DNA of 64,000 nucleotides from GCF_053078305.1 NZ_CP166879.1, one strand, 5' to 3'. Shown: positions 838-54,473, numbered from the stretch's first letter. Notes: generated from the sequence alone by a model not told the origin. Numbers and translations: made by a program.

Positions 838-866
838 TATCATGATTAACAATCATTATCATTTGC
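838..866. promoter_or_regulatory. Fur-box-like site upstream of yqjH
   Basis: TCATGATTAACAATCATTATCATT resembles GATAATGATAATCATTATC consensus; yqjH is known to be iron/Fur regulated. Confidence 0.5.
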
Positions 867-44241: not shown

Positions 44242-46137
<1,896 letters not shown>

Positions 46138-46166
46138 TAATCCTCCCGCCAGAAGAATAAAACATA

Positions 46167-46198
46167 GCCCGGTATACAAGTGTATACCGGGCTTTTTT
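46167..46198. terminator. Bidirectional hairpin terminator between parE and receptor gene
   Basis: GCCCGGTATACAAGTGTATACCGGGC followed by TTTTTT. Confidence 0.75.
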
Positions 46199-46200
46199 GA

Positions 46201-48342
46201 TCAAAATTCCATTTTCACCGTGAATTGCACTTCACGCGGATCGCCAATCTGATTCCCCAGATTATTTGTGGCGATGGAAGAGGTGTAATACGTTTTATCA
46301 AACAGGTTTTTGACGTTTAATTGCAGTGTGACCGGATACTGCAATTTCATTTTGTATGCGGCGAAGGCATCGGCAACGAAATAGCCTGGCAGATAATAGT
46401 CAGCCCCATTGGTTGCCGAACGACGGCTTACGCCATGTCCACCACCGCCAAACGTCAGTGTGTTATTGCCAGGCATGTTATGAATGTCATAGGTCAGGAA
46501 TAGCGAACCGGTATGACGAGGAACATTCGGCAATGGTTTCCCTGCATAATCAGGATCTTCCAGAACCTTAGCATCGGTATAGCCGTAGCTGGCAATGATA
46601 TTAATGTTTTCAGTTAATGCTCCCGCAAGGTCGACTTCTACCCCTCTTGAACGAACGCGGCCTGCCGTTTTGGCGATGGTTTCATCACCAATACTTTCGG
46701 TATACAACACGTTACGTTTATGGATATCAAACAGCGCAATATCTGCGGTTATACCATCGAACAGCTCGAATTTTGCCCCGACTTCGTAAGCATTAGATGA
46801 TTCCGGTGGAAGATCTCCGATGTAGCTGGCAATTGACGATTGCGGCATAAATGTTTGCGAATAATTAGCAAATAAGGATACCGATGGCGTCAGTTTGTAG
46901 ACTAACCCCAGTTTGGGCGTCCATTGTTCATCGCGGCTGTCAGTATTGACATTAAAAGGACGGCCTTTACCCGCATACTGCGTGTAATACTGATAGCGGA
47001 TCCCGGCGACGGCAATCCAGTTATCGGTCAGATAGAGCGCATCCTGTGCATAAGCTGAGTAGCTCTCCTGTTTGATCGTCTGATCACTGTCCGACGCCGA
47101 AACCGTTGTGCATTTGCTGGTATTGCCATAAACGGGGTTGTAGATATTGAAATCTTTAGCGTTTTTACAGCGAATCATATCTGTGCGCAGAAGATCATAA
47201 TATTCATATGACACCCCACCCAGAATCTCATTATAGAACCCAGCAATATCAACATTCCCTTGCAGATCCGCACGAGTAGAATGCATACGCTGGGTAGATC
47301 CCTGAGTTGCATCAACACGCCGTGTCAGCGTTCCTGTCGTTGCATCATACGCGGTAACGCGAGCCTGATTGTCGCTGTATTTATCCTGGCTGTAGCTGTA
47401 ATCAAAGCGCGCTGTCCACTGGCTATTGAGATGATATTCTGCGTTGAGTTGCGCCAGATCGGACTGACCATCTGTAATATTAAACGGTTCGTCAAAACGT
47501 ATTTTTCGATCAACGTTTACGGGCTGTTTCGTCGTAAGGTCGAAAATCGTTCCACGATCGAACGGAGTTTTATAGTCCCGATGGGAATAGAGCATGGTTA
47601 CTGTTGCATTATCACCAAACCAGGTGAGTGACGGGGCAATAAATGTACTGCGCTCTTTACCGAAGTTTCGCCAGTAATCTTCATCCTGCACTTCCCCCGT
47701 CAGGCGGTATGCCAGCTGAGTGCCTTCAATGGGACCTGTGATATCAAGTTGCCCAGTGCCTCCGCCAAAACTGGAGGACGTGGCTGAGACAGAACCATGG
47801 AATGTTTTTTCCGGGCGCTTGGTCACGACGTTAATCAATCCACCAGGATCGAGAATGCCATACAGCGTGGAGGCCGGACCTTTTAGCACTTCCACACGTT
47901 CTGTGGCGGCGTTGAAACTGCGAGGAAGTACAGTTCGCAGGCCGTTGGTCATGATGGAGCCATCCCGGTTAGCACCAAACCCACGACGTACAAAGGCGTC
48001 CTGAGTTCCGCCTAATGTATTGGTCTGTACCACGTTACTGACGTTATAAAGCGCTTCATCCAGCGTCGTTGCATTCTGATTTTCCAGAACCTGATCGCTA
48101 ACCGTATTGACCACCTGCGGGATATCCAGCATCGGCATATCGGTTAATGTCGCCGTGGAAGTGCTCAGAGGTTGATAACCATCGGTCGCCTCAGTTGCGG
48201 TATTTGCATCCGCTGTAACAGTGATTGTTTCGCCATCTTTGGTCGTTGCAGTGTCGGTTGCATGAATCATTGGTGCTGCAAAGAGCAGTGAAAAGAGCGC
48301 CCGACCTTTGATTCCTGAGAATGAAGGTGTGAACTTAGCCAT
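46201..48342 (-). CDS. TonB-dependent outer-membrane siderophore receptor (Fit-like)
   Basis: 713-aa ORF; signal peptide, TonB box (ETITVTA), C-terminal ...FTVKMEF beta-barrel terminus. Confidence 0.85.
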   Translation of the reverse strand: MAKFTPSFSGIKGRALFSLLFAAPMIHATDTATTKDGETITVTADANTATEATDGYQPLSTSTATLTDMPMLDIPQVVNTVSDQVLENQNATTLDEALYNVSNVVQTNTLGGTQDAFVRRGFGANRDGSIMTNGLRTVLPRSFNAATERVEVLKGPASTLYGILDPGGLINVVTKRPEKTFHGSVSATSSSFGGGTGQLDITGPIEGTQLAYRLTGEVQDEDYWRNFGKERSTFIAPSLTWFGDNATVTMLYSHRDYKTPFDRGTIFDLTTKQPVNVDRKIRFDEPFNITDGQSDLAQLNAEYHLNSQWTARFDYSYSQDKYSDNQARVTAYDATTGTLTRRVDATQGSTQRMHSTRADLQGNVDIAGFYNEILGGVSYEYYDLLRTDMIRCKNAKDFNIYNPVYGNTSKCTTVSASDSDQTIKQESYSAYAQDALYLTDNWIAVAGIRYQYYTQYAGKGRPFNVNTDSRDEQWTPKLGLVYKLTPSVSLFANYSQTFMPQSSIASYIGDLPPESSNAYEVGAKFELFDGITADIALFDIHKRNVLYTESIGDETIAKTAGRVRSRGVEVDLAGALTENINIIASYGYTDAKVLEDPDYAGKPLPNVPRHTGSLFLTYDIHNMPGNNTLTFGGGGHGVSRRSATNGADYYLPGYFVADAFAAYKMKLQYPVTLQLNVKNLFDKTYYTSSIATNNLGNQIGDPREVQFTVKMEF

Positions 48343-48441
48343 TTAGTCTGTTATCCCAAAAACTCACGGATTGTCGTGAGTGAAAATTGTTTCTTGTTGC
48401 TCACTAAGCACTATCCGTTTGTTATTTCACCATCGGATATG

Positions 48442-48460
48442 TAATTGAGAATCATTCAAC
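48442..48460. promoter_or_regulatory. Fur-box-like site in divergent promoter region
   Basis: TAATTGAGAATCATTCAAC resembles Fur consensus (one or two mismatches in core). Confidence 0.4.
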
Positions 48461-48715
48461 CATGCGGTAATGTAGTAGTAAATGAGAAATAACAAAAAAT
48501 TGCTACATGTGTTTTTTTGAGAGGTTAATGCAATTCAATTGATGGTAATTTATTAATATTTAATGATTTTATTTTTATCTTTAAAAATATTTCACCTGTT
48601 ATTTACCTTGTTTTTGTATGGCTTTTAACTTCTTGACTACTACATTTTGTGGCGTCAAACTCTCAAAAGAGAATGAGTTTTATTTTTGTTTGTCTTTGAT
48701 TAAGTTGGCGTACAC

Positions 48716-49525
48716 GTGGCACATAACGCAAAAGGGCAGGGGCTGATCCTCGACAATGTTTCTGCCGGGTATCACAAGAAAATCATTGTTGATGGTGTTT
48801 CTTTCTCCGTTCCCACAGAAAAAATGACCGTTCTGGTTGGGGCAAACGGCTGTGGAAAGTCGACGTTGCTCAGCACCATTGCACGTATCTTGCAACCCAT
48901 GGGCGGCTCAATATTGCTGGATGGTAAAGCGATTCACGAGCAACCAACGAAAGCGTTATCCCGTAGACTTGGGATCTTGCCGCAGTCGCCATTATTGCCG
49001 GAGGGCTTAACCGTTTATGAACTGGTGTCGCGTGGGCGTTTTCCCTGGCAAAATTTCATACGTCAATGGAGCGACGCCGACGAGCAGGCGGTAGAAGAGG
49101 CCCTGAAATTAACCGGTACGCAGGAGTTTGCTCATTTACCTGTTGAAAAACTCTCTGGTGGGCAGCGCCAGCGTTGCTGGATTGCGATGGTGTTGGCGCA
49201 AAAGACGCCTTATATCCTACTGGATGAACCCACAACCTGGCTTGATTTACGTTATCAGGTTGAAATTCTTGAGTTATTACATGATTTAACGCGTCATCAC
49301 GGGCGTACAGTCGTCGTGGTGTTGCATGATCTGAATTTTGCCGTCAATTATGGTGATACGTTGATATTTTTACGCCAGGGGAAAGTGGTGCGTGTGTTGA
49401 ATGAGGGGGAGCATTGCACGCCTGAGCTGGTAAAAGCTGTCTTTGACGTTGATGTTCACGCATCAATAAATACTCTGACGGGAAAGCCGTTCTTCATGCC
49501 GTTTCGTGGTGTAGAAAAAGTATGA
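48716..49525 (+). CDS. ABC transporter ATP-binding protein (iron-siderophore type)
   Basis: 269-aa ORF; Walker A GANGCGKST, signature LSGGQRQR, Walker B ILLDEP. Confidence 0.85.
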   Translation: MAHNAKGQGLILDNVSAGYHKKIIVDGVSFSVPTEKMTVLVGANGCGKSTLLSTIARILQPMGGSILLDGKAIHEQPTKALSRRLGILPQSPLLPEGLTVYELVSRGRFPWQNFIRQWSDADEQAVEEALKLTGTQEFAHLPVEKLSGGQRQRCWIAMVLAQKTPYILLDEPTTWLDLRYQVEILELLHDLTRHHGRTVVVVLHDLNFAVNYGDTLIFLRQGKVVRVLNEGEHCTPELVKAVFDVDVHASINTLTGKPFFMPFRGVEKV

Positions 49526-50505
49526 TGCGCACAGGGCTGGTTACTGTAATTTTCCTCACCTTACTGCTGGTGGGATGCGTGGTATATCCAGGGATTGGTG
49601 CCCGATTTATTGCACCACAAACGGTGTTGCAGGCATTTCTTCATTTTGATCCGCAAAACTTCGATCACAGCGTAATTGTAAGACTCCGTTTGCCGCGTTT
49701 AGCGGCAGCATTGCTTACCGGTGCTTCTCTTGGTGTTGCCGGTGCTTTGTTGCAGGCTGTCATTCGTAACCCATTGGGGGAGCCACATATTTTAGGCTTA
49801 AATGCCGGAGCCGCTCTTGCTGTCGTTGCCGCCAGTGCGCTTGGACTGGCCTTTCCGGCTGGACGCCCACTGCTGGCATCTACGGGGGGCGCGTTATTGT
49901 TCCTGTTGATATTGCTGCTTTCCTCCGCAGGGCGTTCAGGGTTAACGCCAATGAAAGTTACTTTATGCGGCGTGGCGCTATCGGCGTTCGTGTCCTCAAT
50001 AACGGCTGCAATCCTGATTCTTGACGAACAAACACTGCTGGCGATGCGGACATGGCTAGCAGGTGATTTAGCGGGGCAGGATTGGGTGACGCTGGGTACG
50101 TCCGTCTGGTTTTCTCTGGGGGGATTTGTGTTAGCCATTTACCTTGCGCCCTCTCTTAACATGTTGGCACTGGGTGATCGCATGGCGCAGGGGCTGGGCG
50201 TCTCGGTACTCCGCACGCGAACATTCACCCTGCTTGCGATCGCGTTGCTCTGTGGCGCAGCCGTATCGATTGCTGGCCCCATTGGTTTTGTCGGCCTGCT
50301 AGTACCGCAGATTGTCCGGCGTCTGGTATCAGCGGATCTGCGCGTTCTGCTCCCTCTTTCAGCTTGTGTCGGCGCGCTTTTGTTATTACTGGCAGATATT
50401 ATTGCTCGGACGCTCTTCACGCCCCATGAGTTAGCGACCGGTGTCATGACGGCGTTAGTTGGTGCGCCTGTTTTTGTCATTATGGCGACGAGGATGTTCA
50501 AATGA
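49522..50505 (+). CDS. ABC permease (FecCD family)
   Basis: 327-aa polytopic membrane protein, overlapping stop/start with flanking genes. Confidence 0.8.
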   Translation: MMRTGLVTVIFLTLLLVGCVVYPGIGARFIAPQTVLQAFLHFDPQNFDHSVIVRLRLPRLAAALLTGASLGVAGALLQAVIRNPLGEPHILGLNAGAALAVVAASALGLAFPAGRPLLASTGGALLFLLILLLSSAGRSGLTPMKVTLCGVALSAFVSSITAAILILDEQTLLAMRTWLAGDLAGQDWVTLGTSVWFSLGGFVLAIYLAPSLNMLALGDRMAQGLGVSVLRTRTFTLLAIALLCGAAVSIAGPIGFVGLLVPQIVRRLVSADLRVLLPLSACVGALLLLLADIIARTLFTPHELATGVMTALVGAPVFVIMATRMFK

Positions 50506-51551
50506 GTCGGATAATGAACGTCGGGCTACGCCCACTACGTGTTGGTAAGTTTTCGACACTGGTACGCCCTAAAAATCTGGTGTTGCTTGGTGGGCTGTTT
50601 CTGTTTGCGGTTGGAATACTGATATTCGGTCTGATGCATGGTTCTTTTTCTGTCCCGGCATCGGAAGTAGGACGAGCGTTGTTTGCTCCAGAAAACGTAA
50701 GCACAGACGCACGTTATATTGTGCAGGATATTCGCTTGCCGAGAGTCATCATGGCATTGCTATGCGGAGCCATGTTAGGTATGGCGGGGGCCGCGATGCA
50801 ATCCATTGCGCGTAACGGCCTTGCCGATCCTGGTTTAATCGGCGTCAAAGAAGGATGTAGCGTGGCGGTGCTGTGGCTGATTTTCCAGTTTCCAATGCTG
50901 GGAATGTTCTGGCGTCCAGTGGCTGGTCTTGCTGGTGGCTTGTTGGTGGCTTTAATCGTGATTTTTTGTGCACGCGATATTTCCCGCCCGCGATTTGTTC
51001 TGATTGGTATTGGTGTTTCCTGGTTTTTCGCCGCCGGTATCGGTGTATTTATGACCACTGCAGATGTTCGAGATGTACAAACTGCATTGATGTGGTTATC
51101 GGGAAGCCTGCATGCAGCTAACTGGATGTTAGTCGGTATTTCAGCCTGTTGGATGTTGCCAGCCACTCTTTTATTGCTGTTCACCGCCAGGACGGCGGAT
51201 ATCGCTCTGCTTGGTCATCAGGTTGCAACCGGGTTAGGGGTGAATAGTTCTCGTCTGGCGTTGTTACGTGTCGCCGCACCAATAATCCTGACAGCCGTCT
51301 GCGTTTCGTGTGTTGGTAACATCGGTTTTGTCGGATTGATAGCACCCCATATATCACGTTTTATTCTACGTGGCGGGCAGACGACATTACTGCTGGGGAG
51401 CGCCGTATCGGGGGCGTTGTTAGTCATCCTGGCGGATAGCATTGGTCGTTTGGCTTTTTTGCCTTTGCAACTGCCTGCCGGAATCATTATTTCATTGATT
51501 GGTGGACCATTCTTTTTGCTACTGCTCTGGCAGTGCAGGAACAGTTTTTAA
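50502..51551 (+). CDS. ABC permease (FecCD family), second subunit
   Basis: 349-aa polytopic membrane protein. Confidence 0.8.
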   Translation: MSRIMNVGLRPLRVGKFSTLVRPKNLVLLGGLFLFAVGILIFGLMHGSFSVPASEVGRALFAPENVSTDARYIVQDIRLPRVIMALLCGAMLGMAGAAMQSIARNGLADPGLIGVKEGCSVAVLWLIFQFPMLGMFWRPVAGLAGGLLVALIVIFCARDISRPRFVLIGIGVSWFFAAGIGVFMTTADVRDVQTALMWLSGSLHAANWMLVGISACWMLPATLLLLFTARTADIALLGHQVATGLGVNSSRLALLRVAAPIILTAVCVSCVGNIGFVGLIAPHISRFILRGGQTTLLLGSAVSGALLVILADSIGRLAFLPLQLPAGIIISLIGGPFFLLLLWQCRNSF

Positions 51552-51561
51552 TGGGAGTTAT

Positions 51562-52509
51562 ATGCGTTTATTTTTTTCTCTGCTGATACTGTTGTCATTC
51601 TTTGCCCGCGCGACAGAACCTGTTCAGGTCTTTACTGATGATTTAGGGCGCAAAGTCACTGTTCCTGCTCATCCAAAGAGAATTGTCTCTTTACACGATC
51701 TTGATATCACTATTCCTCTGATTGAGCTCGGTGTACCTCCTGTCGCCAGCCACGGGCGAACTCGGCCTGACGGTAGCCATTTCATTCGATCAGGCGCGTT
51801 ATTGACAGGTGTCGACTTTGATAATTCATCGATCGCTTTTATTGGCACCGCTGATATTGATATTGAAGCGATTGTGGCGGCAAAGCCTGACCTGATTATC
51901 ACAGAACCGACCCGTAATACGCCCATTGAACAACTGGAAAAAATTGCGCCCACGGTGAGCATTGATCATCTCAAAGGAGGCGCGCCAGAAATCTACCGCA
52001 AGCTGGCAGAACTGACAGGAACGCAGTCGCAGCTGGCGATACTTGAACGCCGCTATCAGGCACAAATCAATGCGCTGAAGGCGACGCTGGACAGCCAAAA
52101 AATAACGGTATCGGTGATTCAGGCAAATCAGGGAAAAATTAATGTGATGCATAGCTATCATTCGCTGGGGCGGGTATTACGCGATGCTGGTTTTCGCTTT
52201 CCGCCGCTGATTGAGAGCATTCCTGAAGGTGGGCGAATGGATGTGAGCGCGGAGCGTTTACCTGAACTGGATGCCGATTTTGTTTTTGCAACCTGGCGCG
52301 GTGACACCGGTGGTAAACCTCAGGATGAGCTGGCAGCAATGGAAAAAGTCATGCCGGGATGGTGTCAGTTTCTGACTGCCTGTCGTTCCGGGCGTTATGT
52401 GCTGATTTCTCGTGAAGAGGCAATTTCTAACTCCTTTGCATCTCTGGGGCTGATGGCTGCGCAGATACAATCACAAATTGCGGGGCGACCTTTACCGGAG
52501 GCCAAATGA
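51562..52509 (+). CDS. Periplasmic iron-siderophore binding protein (start trimmed to MRLFFSLLIL signal peptide)
   Basis: 315 aa from ATG with SD GGGAG; FecB/FhuD-like binding protein. Confidence 0.75.
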   Translation: MRLFFSLLILLSFFARATEPVQVFTDDLGRKVTVPAHPKRIVSLHDLDITIPLIELGVPPVASHGRTRPDGSHFIRSGALLTGVDFDNSSIAFIGTADIDIEAIVAAKPDLIITEPTRNTPIEQLEKIAPTVSIDHLKGGAPEIYRKLAELTGTQSQLAILERRYQAQINALKATLDSQKITVSVIQANQGKINVMHSYHSLGRVLRDAGFRFPPLIESIPEGGRMDVSAERLPELDADFVFATWRGDTGGKPQDELAAMEKVMPGWCQFLTACRSGRYVLISREEAISNSFASLGLMAAQIQSQIAGRPLPEAK

Positions 52510-53393
52510 TTCAGAAAGACAAAACGCGGGTTGATATTTATGGTGAGCGTTTTCGCACTCGCGCGAGTCAGTTAACGCCTGGGTTAAGAGCTGTCGCCAG
52601 CTATATTAATGAGCATCGTGAAGTGGTACTCGAGCAAACGGCGATGGAAATTGCGGCCACGTTGAACACTTCCGATGCCACAGTTATCAGGGCTATACAG
52701 GCCCTGGGGTTTGCCGGGCTGCGTGATCTGAAACGCACTCTGGAACAGTGGCTTGGTCCAGCCCTTAGTTCCAGCGAAAAGATGTCTACGACGGTGAGTA
52801 ACTTGACGAGCGATGTTAACACCGCAATCGACTTTGTTCTTGAAGGGCATTTGTATACCTGTAATGTCCTGTCAGAGCCTGAAAACCGCCACGCGCTTGC
52901 GCAAGCGGTAGCGTTGTTGGTACAGGCACGGCAAGTCGCAATTTTTGGCATTGGCGCTTCGGGTATTCTGGCGGACTATACCGCACGACTATTCAACCGC
53001 ATAGGTTTGCCAGCCACGGCACTAAACCGTACGGGTATTGGCCTTGCCGAGCAACTGATCGCGCTTCAACGTGGCGATGTTCTGATCATGATGGCGCAAA
53101 AATCTGCGCACCGGGAAGGGCTGACAACGCTGCGTGAAGCGAGACGGCTGGGGATCCCTGTTATTTTGCTGACAAACGCGCTGGATTCACGTTTTAGCAA
53201 AGACGCCAGTATCGTGATTCATGTTCCGCGCGGGGATGAAAAGGGGAAAACGCCACTACATGGTACGGTATTGTTGTGCCTGGAAATGATTGTCTGGTCG
53301 GTGGCTTCCGCGGTGCCGCAGCGTGCGGTTAAAACCATTAAGCGAATTAACGATTTCCATCGGGGGCTGAAAACGGGAAGAAAGAATGGCTAA
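52506..53393 (+). CDS. RpiR/MurR-family transcriptional regulator (HTH + SIS domain)
   Basis: 295-aa ORF; N-terminal HTH and central SIS fold. Confidence 0.75.
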   Translation: MIQKDKTRVDIYGERFRTRASQLTPGLRAVASYINEHREVVLEQTAMEIAATLNTSDATVIRAIQALGFAGLRDLKRTLEQWLGPALSSSEKMSTTVSNLTSDVNTAIDFVLEGHLYTCNVLSEPENRHALAQAVALLVQARQVAIFGIGASGILADYTARLFNRIGLPATALNRTGIGLAEQLIALQRGDVLIMMAQKSAHREGLTTLREARRLGIPVILLTNALDSRFSKDASIVIHVPRGDEKGKTPLHGTVLLCLEMIVWSVASAVPQRAVKTIKRINDFHRGLKTGRKNG

Positions 53394-53437
53394 TCTGACC
53401 TGAGGCCGGTAGCAACACCGGCCTCTTTTCAGGAATG

Positions 53438-53752
53438 TTAAATCCCCGGTTGCAGAATACGGATATTCATCTCCAGCACGTCGCCTTTTACGGCTTCGCT
53501 GTACGCCTTCATGTGCGGGGTTTGCAGATGCGCTTCAAGGTGCGCGATGCTTTCCCACTGCTCAATCATCACGATAGAGTCCGGTGCCATAGACTGGAAA
53601 CTCACGCCAGCAGCGCAATCCACCATTGGCGCATAGCCGTGGCAACCTTCTTCTTTCAGTACGGTTGGAACGATTTTAGCAAACTGATCCAATACCGCCT
53701 GACGGTGATGTTGACCAGGACGAGTACGGATTTCTGCGATTACGGTAAGCAT
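53438..53752 (-). CDS. ygiN: Quinol monooxygenase YgiN
   Basis: 104-aa ORF, ABM-domain protein. Confidence 0.9.
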   Translation of the reverse strand: MLTVIAEIRTRPGQHHRQAVLDQFAKIVPTVLKEEGCHGYAPMVDCAAGVSFQSMAPDSIVMIEQWESIAHLEAHLQTPHMKAYSEAVKGDVLEMNIRILQPGI

Positions 53753-53782
53753 GGTTAACTCCTTCTAAAGCCTGAGCTCTAG

Positions 53783-54364
53783 TTAACCAAAAATTTCCAC
53801 AAGATGCTTGCGATATTCTTCAGTATAGCGGGGAACATCAGGCATTTTTATCACGTCATTAGCGATAAATGTCGGCAGCGGTTCCATGCCAAGGAATTGG
53901 TTTGCTTTATGGAACGGCAGATACACACCGTCGACGCCAACGCCGTGGAAGAATTGATCTTTTTCGGTGAAGGCTTCCATTGGTGCGTTCCAGGTCAGAG
54001 AAAGCATATATTTTTTGCCCTGTACCAGGCCGCCGGAACCGTATTTTTTCGACGGATCTTTGCGGGTACGACCATCGCTGGCATACAGCGTCCCGTGACC
54101 TTCGGTGAATACATCATCAATGTATTTTTTCACTGTCCACGGCGCGCCCATCCACCAGCCTGGCATCTGCCAGATCACCACATCAGCCCAGAGAAAGTTT
54201 TGTACTTCCGCTTTGACATCGTAGTCGCTGTCGGCGCGAACGATGCGAACATCATGCCCGAGGTCGCGCAGTGTGCCATCCGCGACTTCGGTCAGGGTGT
54301 CGTTCAGTTGACCATTGGAGTGGGCGAATTTTTTCGCGCCGTTGATAATCAGGATGTTGCTCAT
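53783..54364 (-). CDS. mdaB: NADPH:quinone oxidoreductase MdaB
   Basis: 193-aa flavodoxin-like ORF. Confidence 0.9.
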   Translation of the reverse strand: MSNILIINGAKKFAHSNGQLNDTLTEVADGTLRDLGHDVRIVRADSDYDVKAEVQNFLWADVVIWQMPGWWMGAPWTVKKYIDDVFTEGHGTLYASDGRTRKDPSKKYGSGGLVQGKKYMLSLTWNAPMEAFTEKDQFFHGVGVDGVYLPFHKANQFLGMEPLPTFIANDVIKMPDVPRYTEEYRKHLVEIFG

Positions 54365-54473
54365 TTTTTAACCTCAAGGTGAGACGTTTGCCGACTATAG
54401 TACGTCACAGAGCGGTACGGTGAAATTAGCAAAATGTGCAAAGTCTTTTGCGAATTTAGCAAAAGTCTTACCC

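What the first reader, a model, noticed from the sequence alone, without database searches (positions are those of the whole stretch)
46201..53393. 7.2-kb TonB-dependent receptor / ABC importer / RpiR regulator cluster inserted between parE and ygiN
Seen: divergently arranged outer-membrane receptor (minus) and an operon of ATPase, two FecCD-type permeases, a periplasmic binding protein and an RpiR-family regulator (plus), with overlapping stops and starts. Knowledge: parE and ygiN are adjacent in K-12 as recalled; an E. coli ABC iron-uptake locus named fit has this composition. Inference: strain-variable Fit-like siderophore uptake island; the RpiR-type (sugar-phosphate sensing SIS domain) regulator is an unusual partner for an iron system.
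Basis: partly seen in the sequence, partly recalled or inferred. Interest (0 to 1): 0.45.

Follow-up and report, generated by a model that had tools for sequence, protein, structure and literature searches.

The report
The known E. coli fit iron-uptake locus
This 7.2-kb cluster is the already published E. coli "fit" iron-uptake system: an outer-membrane receptor, an ABC importer and its own repressor FitR, carried by about a third of E. coli strains and most likely lost from K-12 rather than inserted here.

Summary
Six intact genes sit at the stated coordinates between parE and ygiN: a TonB-dependent receptor on the minus strand and, on the plus strand, an ATPase, two FecCD permeases, a binding protein and an RpiR-family regulator.

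The cluster is not merely Fit-like. It is the fit locus of Ouyang & Isaacson (2006, 2008): gene order matches fitA / fitB-C-D-E-R, and all their published primers map to the expected genes. FitE matches PDB 3BE5/3BE6. FitR is a published auto-repressor acting independently of Fur. Fit is a published direct Fur target in CFT073. The substrate is still unknown.

Strain variability is confirmed: 1870 of 5426 complete E. coli genomes carry it, and MG1655 has parE and ygiN 47 bp apart. "Inserted" is not supported. The same parE-fit-ygiN arrangement occurs in Enterobacter, Silvania, Huaxiibacter and other Escherichia species, divergence inside fit tracks the flanks, and there are no mobility genes. 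Loss in the K-12 lineage is more likely.

Modest additions here:
- FitR orthologues sit beside a siderophore-type receptor gene in essentially all of about 80 Enterobacterales species.
- A shared promoter core gives a candidate FitR operator.
- The fitA leader has two covarying hairpins.
- FitR lacks the canonical phosphosugar loop.

Verdict: already known, low interest.

The parts
46166..46193 (.). Bidirectional terminator-like hairpin between the parE stop and the fitA stop. K-12 keeps a homologue of it in its 47-bp parE-ygiN spacer.
   Evidence: 12-bp stem, 7 GC pairs, T-run on both strands; the first 20 nt of the K-12 spacer match window 46154-46173 at 16/20; 2 of 500 shuffles reach that score.
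46201..48342 (-). fitA: TonB-dependent siderophore-type outer-membrane receptor, 713 aa, with a signal peptide and a TonB box (ETITVTA).
   Evidence: Plug + barrel; TIGR01783 at 373.6 bits (cutoff 223.5); no equivalog cutoff reached (FhuA 230 vs 803); the published fitA qPCR primers map at 47522-47541 and 47579-47598 with 0 mismatches; nearest solved receptors are FetA, FoxA, CntO and FhuA, all at only E~1e-44 to 1e-49.
48343..48447 (-). Predicted fitA 5' leader (~105 nt). It contains hairpin 1 (48412-48439), then hairpin 2 (48363-48380) followed by UUUUU and the Shine-Dalgarno region.
   Evidence: MFE -22.4 kcal/mol, z = -2.7; all 4 outer pairs of hairpin 1 show compensatory double changes (8, 5, 4 and 4 sequences); hairpin 2 is present in 36/36 orthologues with unrelated stem sequences, mean z = -2.0; no Rfam family. 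The transcription start is inferred from the -10 element, not measured.
48441..48464 (-). fitA promoter extended -10 (TGnTTGAAT, + strand 48454-48464), overlapped by the Fur-box-like element GTAATTGAGAATCATTCAA (48441-48459).
   Evidence: 12/19 to the Fur consensus (13/19 in the Salmonella and Serratia variant); invariant in 75 species, including receptor genes only ~37% identical to FitA. Published: fit is a direct Fur target (PMC7157518) and fitA is derepressed 23-fold in a fur mutant (PMC2593036).
48471..48507 (-). fitA -35 hexamer (TTTACT, + strand 48477-48482), the invariant ACTACA next to it (48471-48476) and an upstream TGTAGC half-site (+ strand CTACA at 48503-48507). Together they form the inverted repeat TGTAGY-N25-ACTACA, the candidate FitR operator.
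   Evidence: TTTACTACTACA is >=90% conserved in 75 species. TGTAG sits at a fixed -28 (or -27) in 20/23 minimal and 33/54 full loci. Assigning it to FitR is inference; the 2008 EMSA used the whole intergenic fragment.
48633..48687 (+). fitB-side promoter region: TTGACTACTACA (48633-48644; a -35-like hexamer plus the same ACTACA element in the opposite orientation) and the Fur-box-like element GAGAATGAGTTTTATTTTT (48669-48687).
   Evidence: inverted repeat I4, 93% complementary; 13/19 to the Fur consensus; conserved in 58 species. The published promoter fragment primers map at 48364-48385 and 48699-48722.
48716..49525 (+). fitB: ABC transporter ATPase, 269 aa, GTG start.
   Evidence: The fitB primers map at 48873-48892 and 48940-48959 with 0 mismatches.
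49522..50505 (+). fitC: FecCD-family permease, 327 aa.
   Evidence: The fitC primers map at 50141-50160 and 50217-50236 with 1-2 mismatches.
50514..51551 (+). fitD: FecCD-family permease, 345 aa from the RefSeq start. An alternative ATG at 50502 overlaps the fitC stop.
   Evidence: The fitD primers map at 51206-51225 and 51246-51265 with 0 mismatches.
51562..52509 (+). fitE: class III periplasmic siderophore-binding protein, 315 aa with signal peptide. Its crystal structure is known.
   Evidence: PDB 3BE5/3BE6, E = 2e-195 over residues 19-315; those entries are named E. coli FitE in the literature. The fitE primers map with 1 mismatch each.
52506..53393 (+). fitR: RpiR/MurR-family repressor (HTH_6 + SIS), 295 aa, with a non-canonical SIS loop M-A-Q-K-S-A-H-R-E-G (residues 196-205).
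   Evidence: The fitR primers map at 52563-52580, 52609-52632, 52673-52696 and 53373-53390 with 0 mismatches. Published as an auto-repressor that binds the fitA-fitB intergenic DNA. Loop conservation.
53403..53430 (+). Terminator-like hairpin (AGGCCGGT...ACCGGCCT) followed by CTTTTC, lying between the fitR stop and the ygiN stop.
   Evidence: Read directly from the sequence printed. It falls just below the scan tool's T-run threshold and is not listed.

Best explanation
The region is the fit locus of E. coli: fitA, divergent from fitB-fitC-fitD-fitE-fitR.

How it works. FitA, energised by TonB, takes an iron chelate across the outer membrane. FitE (structure 3BE5/3BE6) binds it in the periplasm. 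FitC and FitD, powered by FitB, import it. Two divergent promoters in the 373-bp AT-rich intergenic region are repressed independently by Fur-Fe2+ and by the locus's own RpiR-family repressor FitR. Those regulatory points are published. The substrate is not known, and enterobactin has been excluded.

Inferred here:
1. Each promoter carries a Fur-box-like element at or just downstream of its -10 region, and an invariant ACTACA element next to its -35 hexamer. At fitA this pairs with an upstream TGTAGY half-site. This is the best candidate for the FitR operator.
2. FitR probably releases the DNA on binding a small anionic ligand related to the transported compound. Fit would then be fully expressed only when iron is low AND the cognate chelate is present.
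3. The locus is ancestral at the parE-ygiN site and was deleted in the lineage that includes K-12.
For: Identity with fit:
- Gene order and products match the published description.
- All fit primers from PMC2593036 map to the expected genes and strands with 0-2 mismatches, apart from one at 4. The fepA, gst and polA control primers do not map.
- FitE matches PDB 3BE5/3BE6 at E = 2e-195, and those entries are named FitE.

Published regulation:
- FitR represses both promoters and shifts the intergenic fragment in EMSA.
- Fit (c3771-c3775) is a direct Fur target by ChIP in CFT073.
- The substrate is unknown and is not enterobactin.

Cis elements:
- Invariant blocks across 5 genera and across 58-75 species.
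- The same promoter core in 21/22 minimal receptor-FitR pairs whose receptor is only ~37% identical to FitA.
- TGTAG at a fixed -28.
- Fur-like scores of 12-13/19, against 15/19 for the yqjI-yqjH intergenic site in the same window.

Ancestral at the site:
- The yqiA-parE-fit-ygiN-mdaB order is found in Enterobacter, Silvania, Huaxiibacter, Escherichia sp. MOD1 and E. whittamii.
- Identity within fit versus the flanks: 96.6-98.3% vs 95.5-99.0% (Nissle), 92-97% vs 93-97% (Escherichia sp.), 69-78% vs 71-86% (Enterobacter).
- GC content of about 0.46-0.57, like the flanks.
Against: - No transport, binding or expression experiment can be run here. The 2006 paper that defined fit was not in the held library, so its content is cited only second-hand.
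- The Fur-like elements are weak matches, and none lies within 3 mismatches of the 19-bp consensus.
- Assigning TGTAGY/ACTACA to FitR is inference. The element overlaps the -35 hexamer, and part of its conservation could simply reflect promoter function.
- TGTAG is missing at the fixed position in 21/54 full-type loci.
- Published FitR effects are modest (2- to 5-fold), and no inducer is known.
- The junction sequences do not settle polarity: only the left side of K-12's spacer shows homology.
- The same module lies elsewhere in Salmonella, Kosakonia, Citrobacter, Klebsiella/Raoultella and Kluyvera, so it has moved at some point in its history.
Confidence: 0.85

Rival explanations
1. A horizontally acquired genomic island, inserted recently between parE and ygiN in some E. 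coli lineages.
For: - Present in only 1870/5426 genomes.
- The same six-gene module sits at other chromosomal sites in Salmonella, Kosakonia, Raoultella, Citrobacter and Kluyvera.
- Related receptor-FitR pairs lie on Pantoea megaplasmids (L071, L083).
- So the unit can move.
Against: - The same site is occupied in four genera and three Escherichia species.
- Divergence equals that of the flanks at every depth.
- No integrase, IS, tRNA or direct repeats at the junctions.
- Ordinary GC content.
- fit-negative examples (K-12, O111:NM, and HS, IAI1 and SE11 per PMC9409007) are, to my knowledge, phylogroup A/B1. fit-positive examples include Nissle and CFT073 (B2) and a 5.6-Mb bovine FRIK strain.
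Confidence: 0.1
2. The system imports something other than a ferric siderophore, for example another metal-metallophore complex or a sugar-derived compound. In that case the SIS-domain regulator would reflect carbohydrate metabolism.
For: - No substrate has ever been identified.
- FitA is as similar to the pseudopaline receptor CntO as it is to FoxA and FhuA.
- The regulator family usually governs sugar catabolism.
- A variant of the operon carries two PstS-like binding proteins.
Against: - Published Fur binding and iron-repressed expression; iron-limitation induction of the Klebsiella homologue.
- FitA exceeds the TonB-siderophore subfamily cutoff.
- FitE's nearest solved relatives are hydroxamate, catecholate and carboxylate siderophore binders.
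- No sugar-catabolic gene is conserved next to the module in any of ~80 species.
- FitR lacks the canonical phosphosugar loop.
Confidence: 0.07
3. FitR is a metabolic sensor, not a substrate sensor. It would bind a cytoplasmic phosphosugar or central metabolite and tune iron uptake to carbon status, independently of what Fit transports.
For: - HTH_6 + SIS architecture, with best matches to HexR-, MurR- and AlsR-type regulators.
- The first SIS loop (GIGASG, Ser152) is retained.
- Published repression was seen in plain LB with no added chelate.
Against: - The position aligned with the first Ser of the 'SQSGRS' loop in PDB 8K3B is Ala or Gly in all FitR orthologues. This is the loop I recall as carrying HexR's KDPG-contacting serine. 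The loop is replaced by an invariant QKSxHREG.
- In the loci where the upstream DNA was available, FitR-clade genes sit beside a siderophore-type receptor gene, in changing neighbourhoods. That is the pattern of a pathway-specific regulator.
- The nearest non-FitR relatives are not receptor-linked.
Confidence: 0.15

Closest known systems
E. coli fit system (fitA, fitBCDE, fitR; Ouyang & Isaacson 2006 and 2008). It is c3771-c3775 in CFT073, and FitE is PDB 3BE5/3BE6.
   Same: Everything testable here: gene content, order and orientation; all published primers map; FitE is essentially identical to the crystallised protein; a ~360-bp bidirectional promoter region; an RpiR-type FitR as the last gene of the operon.
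   Different: Nothing substantive. This is an allele from another strain (0-4 primer mismatches; 97% DNA identity to the B2 allele of Nissle).
Fhu ferric-hydroxamate system (FhuA receptor; FhuCDB importer)
   Same: The same three-tier architecture: TonB-dependent receptor, class III binding protein, FecCD-type permease and ATPase. FhuA is among FitA's best-scoring named families. Both are Fur-repressed.
   Different: FitA scores 230 bits against the FhuA equivalog cutoff of 803. There are two separate permeases, not a fused FhuB. FitE is only distantly related to FhuD (E~1e-13). Fhu has no dedicated regulator.
Fec ferric-citrate system (FecABCDE with FecIR)
   Same: FitB, FitC and FitD score best or near-best against the FecE, FecC and FecD models. 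It is one of the few E. coli iron systems with its own regulator in addition to Fur.
   Different: All scores are below the equivalog cutoffs. Fec is regulated by an ECF sigma/anti-sigma pair signalling through the receptor's N-terminal extension. FitA lacks such an extension, and the Fit regulator is a cytoplasmic RpiR-type repressor.
RpiR/MurR family repressors (HexR, MurR, AlsR/RpiR, NanR of Vibrio)
   Same: N-terminal HTH_6 and C-terminal SIS domain. Nearest structures are 8K3B/8JU9 and 4IVN. FitR acts as a repressor of adjacent divergent genes.
   Different: The targets are an iron-uptake receptor and importer, not sugar catabolism. The second SIS phosphate loop is replaced by QKSxHREG. 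No effector is known.

Membership tests
E. coli fit locus (Ouyang & Isaacson) | Six genes: fitA (receptor), divergent from fitB (ATPase), fitC and fitD (permeases), fitE (binding protein) and fitR | tested here: met
   against the description.
E. coli fit locus (Ouyang & Isaacson) | Sequence identity to the published locus | tested here: met
   All of the fit primers map in the right gene and orientation; 15 of 16 have 0-2 mismatches. FitE matches 3BE5/3BE6 at E = 2e-195.
E. coli fit locus (Ouyang & Isaacson) | Iron/Fur-repressed and FitR-repressed expression | not testable with these tools
   Published. Here I found only conserved Fur-like boxes (12-13/19) and a candidate FitR operator.
TonB-dependent siderophore receptor subfamily (TIGR01783) | Plug + 22-strand barrel domains scoring above the subfamily cutoff, plus an N-terminal TonB box | tested here: met
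   373.6 bits against a cutoff of 223.5. Pfam Plug and barrel. ETITVTA is present after the signal peptide in the translation.
FhuA / FoxA / FhuE / Fiu / FecA equivalogs | Score at or above the NCBIfam equivalog cutoff, which implies the same substrate | tested here: not met
   FhuA 230 vs 803; FoxA 166 vs 1300; FhuE 163 vs 666; Fiu 152 vs 686; FecA 102 vs 1100.
FecCD/BtuCD-type (type II) ABC importer | FecCD-family permease(s), a cognate ATPase and a Peripla_BP_2 (class III) binding protein in one operon | tested here: met
   Pfam FecCD at 295 and 263 bits, ABC_tran at 118 bits, Peripla_BP_2 at 67 bits.
RpiR/MurR transcription factor family | HTH_6 DNA-binding domain plus SIS domain | tested here: met
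   HTH_6 39.8 bits (cutoff 28.3); SIS 52.1 bits (cutoff 25).
RpiR/MurR transcription factor family | Canonical phosphosugar-binding SIS pocket, including the Ser-x-Ser-Gly-x-Ser/Thr loop | tested here: not met
   8K3B 'SQSGRS' aligns with FitR 'AQKSAHR'. QKSxHREG is invariant in 12 orthologues. The loop is also absent in relatives at 34-50% identity. That this loop contacts the phosphate is from my knowledge of SIS domains, not tested here.
Mobile genomic island | Integrase or transposase, tRNA or repeat-flanked junctions, deviant base composition, patchy phylogeny | tested here: not met
   No such genes or repeats. GC content like the flanks. Same-site synteny across genera, with divergence equal to the flanks.

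The most novel reading that the evidence does not exclude
FitR may define a previously unremarked clade of RpiR-family repressors dedicated to siderophore-type TonB-dependent receptors across Enterobacterales. The clade would have three features:
- A non-canonical SIS pocket that senses the imported chelate or a derivative. With Fur this would form an AND gate: low iron plus chelate present.
- A fixed operator, TGTAGY-N25-ACTACA, bracketing the -35 hexamer.
- In fitA-type genes, an extra layer of control through a structured leader whose second hairpin plus U-run acts as an attenuator.
Probability: 0.25. Interest if true: 0.4.

Novelty: already known. Interest (0 to 1): 0.15.

Why it matters
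As a discovery it matters little. The locus, its regulator, its Fur control and the structure of its binding protein are all published, and fitA is already used as a marker of B2 and adherent-invasive E. coli.

What stays open is practical: the substrate and the FitR ligand are unknown almost twenty years on. The comparative results here make both easier to attack:
- A defined operator candidate to mutate.
- A conserved ligand-pocket motif (K199, H202, R203, E204) to probe.
- The finding that orthologues are most common in plant- and soil-associated Enterobacterales, which suggests where to look for the chelate.
- A corrected evolutionary reading: ancestral at this site and lost in the K-12 lineage.

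Tried and rejected
- Strict Fur consensus search (up to 3 mismatches): no hit anywhere in the window. I used graded scoring with an internal control instead.
- DNA looping between the two ACTACTACA elements: their spacing is 162, 162, 185, 175 and 183 bp in five genera, with no constant length or helical phase. Not supported.
- Deletion scar: only the left 20 nt of K-12's spacer is homologous to the window's junction (2/500 shuffles). The right side is not significant (166/500). Junctions do not decide polarity.
- TATCCG...CGGATA as a protein operator: rejected in favour of an RNA hairpin, because the arms covary and the spacer differs by 5 nt (22 or 27 nt start-to-start).
- Leader peptide starting at the ATG in the conserved GGGCAATGA box: rejected, because E. 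coli and Kosakonia lack the ATG.
- RNAalifold on the MAFFT alignment missed hairpin 2 because its stems are not aligned in register. I replaced it with per-sequence folding.
- Rfam: no credible match.
- Receptor linkage in more distant FitR relatives (50% identity or less): none found in the four contexts examined, two of them on very short contigs.
- The structured leader in minimal-type receptor genes: absent, 0/22.
- The 2006 paper (PMC1698097) is not held.
- Literature search for other RpiR-receptor pairings found nothing relevant.
- Structure prediction of FitR was considered and skipped, because no coordinates are returned for pocket mapping.

Full report

Yes.
- A 713-aa gene on the minus strand (46201-48342).
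- On the plus strand, genes at 48716-49525, 49522-50505, 50502/50514-51551, 51499/51562-52509 and 52506-53393.

There are 4-bp stop/start overlaps at fitB/fitC and fitE/fitR, and at fitC/fitD if the longer start is used.

Pfam and NCBIfam assign them as follows:
- A TonB-dependent siderophore receptor: Plug + barrel, TIGR01783 at 373.6 bits against a cutoff of 223.5.
- An ABC ATPase.
- Two FecCD permeases.
- A Peripla_BP_2 binding protein.
- An HTH_6 + SIS (RpiR/MurR) regulator.

The flanking genes are parE (44245-46137) and ygiN (53438-53752, minus strand). A strain 100% identical over the region carries the same six annotated genes. In K-12 MG1655, ygiN (b3029) and parE (b3030) are adjacent with only 47 bp between them, so the recalled synteny is right.

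**2. What is it?**

It is not merely Fit-like. It is the fit locus.

Ouyang & Isaacson (PMC2593036) describe fitA (receptor), fitB (ATPase), fitC and fitD (permeases), fitE (binding protein) and fitR, with a bidirectional promoter between fitA and fitB. That is the same order and orientation as here.

I mapped every primer in their Table 2 onto the window. The primer pairs for fitA, fitB, fitC, fitD, fitE and fitR, the two fitR cloning pairs and the promoter pair all land in the expected gene and orientation. All have 0-2 mismatches except one with 4. Their control primers for fepA, gst and polA do not map.

FitE matches PDB 3BE5/3BE6 at E = 2e-195 over the mature protein. Two papers name those entries E. 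coli FitE.

In CFT073 the locus is c3771-c3775.

**3. What is already known about how it works?**

From PMC2593036:
- FitR over-expression represses both promoters.
- A fitR knockout de-represses them 2- to 5-fold, and complementation restores repression.
- Purified FitR shifts the intergenic fragment specifically.
- Iron limitation still induces fit in a fitR mutant.
[quoted passage not shown] Fur and FitR therefore act independently.

Fur binds the locus directly in CFT073 by ChIP (PMC7157518). The substrate is unknown and is not enterobactin (PMC5907654). fitA is enriched in B2 and adherent-invasive strains and is absent from the commensals HS, IAI1 and SE11 (PMC9409007).

The proposed Fur titration assay has been overtaken.

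**4. Strain variability, and was it "inserted"?**

Megablast of 45800-53800 against 5426 complete E. coli genomes finds the whole cluster in 1870 (34%). In nearly all the others, only the parE and ygiN ends match, about 750 bp apart.

The polarity implied by "inserted" is not supported, for four reasons.

*Same-site synteny.* The single genome-collection scan, run with a FitR alignment, returned 80 species-representative loci. A tblastn architecture table shows yqiA-parE-fitA-fitBCDE-fitR-ygiN-mdaB in these taxa as well:
- Many Enterobacter species.
- Silvania confinis.
- Huaxiibacter chinensis.
- An unnamed Escherichia species.
- E. whittamii (partial contig).

*Matching divergence.* Nucleotide identity inside fit tracks the flanking core genes at three depths:
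- Nissle: 96.6-98.3% versus 95.5-99.0%.
- Escherichia sp.: 92-97% versus 93-97%.
- Enterobacter asburiae: 69-78% versus 71-86%.

*Ordinary composition.* GC content is ordinary apart from the AT-rich promoter.

*No mobility signatures.* There is no integrase, IS element, tRNA or target-site duplication.

Divergence from the empty site begins at the last sense codon of parE and ends about 15 bp inside the 3' end of ygiN. K-12's spacer keeps a homologue of the parE terminator hairpin (16/20 identity, 2 of 500 shuffles), but the right side shows no convincing scar.

The most economical reading is long residence at this site and loss in the lineage that includes K-12.

There is a caveat. The same six-gene module lies at other chromosomal sites in one Salmonella genome, and in Kosakonia, Citrobacter, Klebsiella/Raoultella, Kluyvera and Phytobacter. 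So it has moved at some time.

**5. What the comparison adds.**

(a) *The FitR-receptor partnership is the conserved core.*
- Every FitR-clade locus with enough upstream DNA has a siderophore-type receptor gene upstream.
- In 23 loci the pair is minimal: a receptor only 36-39% identical to FitA lies directly divergent from a FitR orthologue of 66-69% identity. These are in Pantoea (some on megaplasmids), Serratia, Erwinia, Tatumella and Rahnella. They have no ABC genes, or only a binding-protein gene, and the surroundings are unrelated, such as lacZY or xanthine dehydrogenase genes.
- Relatives of FitR at 50% identity or less are not receptor-linked.

(b) *A shared promoter core.* Footprinting across 5 genera and then across 58-75 species gives this consensus on the receptor-sense strand: TGTAGY-N19-caTTTACTACTACAtt....caTGnTTGAATGATTcTCAATTACA.
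- It reads as a -35 hexamer (TTTACT), a 17-nt spacer and an extended -10 (TGnTTGAAT).
- Two features go beyond what RNA polymerase needs.
  - An invariant ACTACA abuts the -35 hexamer. It is repeated in inverted orientation at the fitB promoter as TTGACTACTACA. It is paired with a TGTAG at a fixed -28 in 20/23 minimal and 33/54 full loci.
  - An invariant Fur-like block covers the -10 element and the start region.
- The Fur-like blocks score 12/19 and 13/19. The yqjI-yqjH-like intergenic site in the same window, which I recognise as a known Fur target, scores 15/19.
- The core survives in 21/22 minimal pairs with a constant 29-nt start-to-start offset, although the receptor proteins have diverged to ~37% identity.
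- I therefore propose TGTAGY-N25-ACTACA as the FitR operator, and the TGA(G/T)AATCATTCAA block as the Fur site. The 2008 paper says the exact sites were not determined. This assignment is inference.

(c) *A structured fitA leader.* The ~105-nt leader folds better than shuffled controls (z = -2.7).
- Hairpin 1 (48412-48439) shows compensatory double changes at all four outer pairs.
- Hairpin 2 (48363-48380) is present in 36/36 orthologues with unrelated stem sequences (mean z = -2.0). In most it is followed by a U-run and then the Shine-Dalgarno sequence.
- No Rfam family matches.
- The leader is specific to fitA-type genes and absent from all 22 minimal-type receptor genes.
- Its function is unknown. 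Attenuation, mRNA stabilisation and an sRNA/Hfq site are all possible.

(d) *A non-canonical SIS pocket.* The first SIS loop is kept (GIGASG). The loop that reads SQSGRS in the nearest structure (8K3B) is AQKSAHR in FitR. QKSxHREG is invariant in 12 orthologues, and the canonical loop is also missing in relatives at 34-50% identity. That this loop binds the sugar phosphate is from my general knowledge of SIS domains. The label "sugar-phosphate sensing" is therefore doubtful. A conserved Lys/His/Arg/Glu cluster suggests an anionic ligand.

(e) *Substrate hints are weak.*
- FitA reaches no equivalog cutoff.
- Its nearest solved relatives are the enantio-pyochelin receptor FetA, FoxA, the chain deposited as CntO, and FhuA. 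All are equally distant.
- FitE's nearest relatives after itself bind hydroxamates, catecholates or staphyloferrin.
- Three loci carry a PepSY_TM protein and two PstS-like proteins between fitE and fitR. PepSY_TM is, to my knowledge, a family that includes membrane siderophore reductases.

**6. Most likely mechanism.**
- *Shown in the literature:* Fur-Fe2+ and FitR independently repress two divergent promoters.
- *Follows from the families involved:* the receptor, binding protein, permeases and ATPase form a standard TonB-dependent, type II ABC uptake route.
- *Inferred here:* Fur occludes the -10 and start region of each promoter, and FitR occupies the -35 region through the TGTAGY/ACTACA repeat. 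FitR is probably released by the imported chelate or a derivative, so that full expression needs both low iron and the presence of the chelate. The fitA leader may add a post-initiation control.

**7. Verdict.**
- The finding is accurate as an observation and largely right as an interpretation.
- It rediscovers a published system. Novelty: already known. Interest: low.
- Two corrections: "inserted" should read "variably present, probably lost in K-12", and "sugar-phosphate sensing" is not supported by the pocket sequence.
- The open questions (substrate, FitR ligand, operator, leader function) are real but incremental.

Noticed in passing
window 48343-48447 (minus strand): The fitA 5' leader has two structure-conserved hairpins. 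Hairpin 1 shows compensatory changes at all 4 outer pairs. Hairpin 2 is present in 36/36 orthologues with unrelated stems and is followed by a U-run and the SD. A conserved single-stranded GGGCAATGA box lies between them, though E. coli itself deviates from it. There is no Rfam match, and none of the papers I read mentions it.
   Followed up: yes
window 54365-54473: ygiZ is absent between mdaB and qseC; only 109 bp separate them. MG1655 has ygiZ there, and Nissle 1917 has an Hcp-family T6SS gene, a hypothetical gene and ygiZ. This is a second small variable spot next to fit.
   Followed up: partly
window 842-866: The best Fur-box match in the whole window (15/19). It lies between a His/Cys-rich regulator-like ORF (2-625, minus) and a 254-aa siderophore-interacting-reductase-like ORF (913-1677, plus). 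I recognise these as yqjI and yqjH, a known Fur target, and used the site as an internal positive control.
   Followed up: partly
L006 7007-10004; also L042 and L043: A variant of the fit operon in Erwinia sp. JUb26, Pantoea coffeiphila and a record labelled Pseudomonas cerasi. It carries three extra genes between fitE and fitR: a PepSY_TM membrane protein and two PstS-like (PBP_like_2) proteins.
   Followed up: partly
L051 7445-10870; L063 6271-10870; about 20 further loci: Minimal pairs in Serratia, Pantoea (some on megaplasmids), Erwinia, Tatumella and Rahnella. A siderophore-type receptor only ~37% identical to FitA lies directly divergent from a FitR orthologue. The same promoter core is present, but there are no ABC transporter genes.
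   Followed up: yes
L006 (GCA_977069525.1, labelled Pseudomonas cerasi): This contig's fit proteins are 65-77% identical to E. coli's and its extra genes 74-79% identical to Erwinia's. Its neighbours are cellobiose-type PTS genes, family 1 glycosidases and a LacI regulator. That looks Enterobacterales-like, so the record may be mislabelled or contaminated, or the region horizontally transferred.
   Followed up: no
hit H11, (strain MB06173, NZ_CM129884.1): In this fit-negative strain the parE-ygiN interval spans ~2.7 kb and is annotated with an MFS transporter and an IS1A transposase. That is a third state of the site.
   Followed up: no
L003 (Salmonella enterica GCA_050507695.1): The only Salmonella copy seen lies elsewhere on the chromosome, between a pitA/uspB-side flavoprotein gene and a VgrG/PAAR-Rhs toxin cluster. 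No Salmonella species representative appeared among the 80 loci listed from the genome scan, so it seems rare in that genus.
   Followed up: no
L009 (NZ_JAATUR010000001.1, labelled E. coli SCPM-O-B-8794): Core genes around fit are only 88-98% identical to the window (qseC 88.4%, parE 92.8%). That is more distant than expected within E. coli and suggests a cryptic Escherichia lineage filed under E. coli.
   Followed up: no
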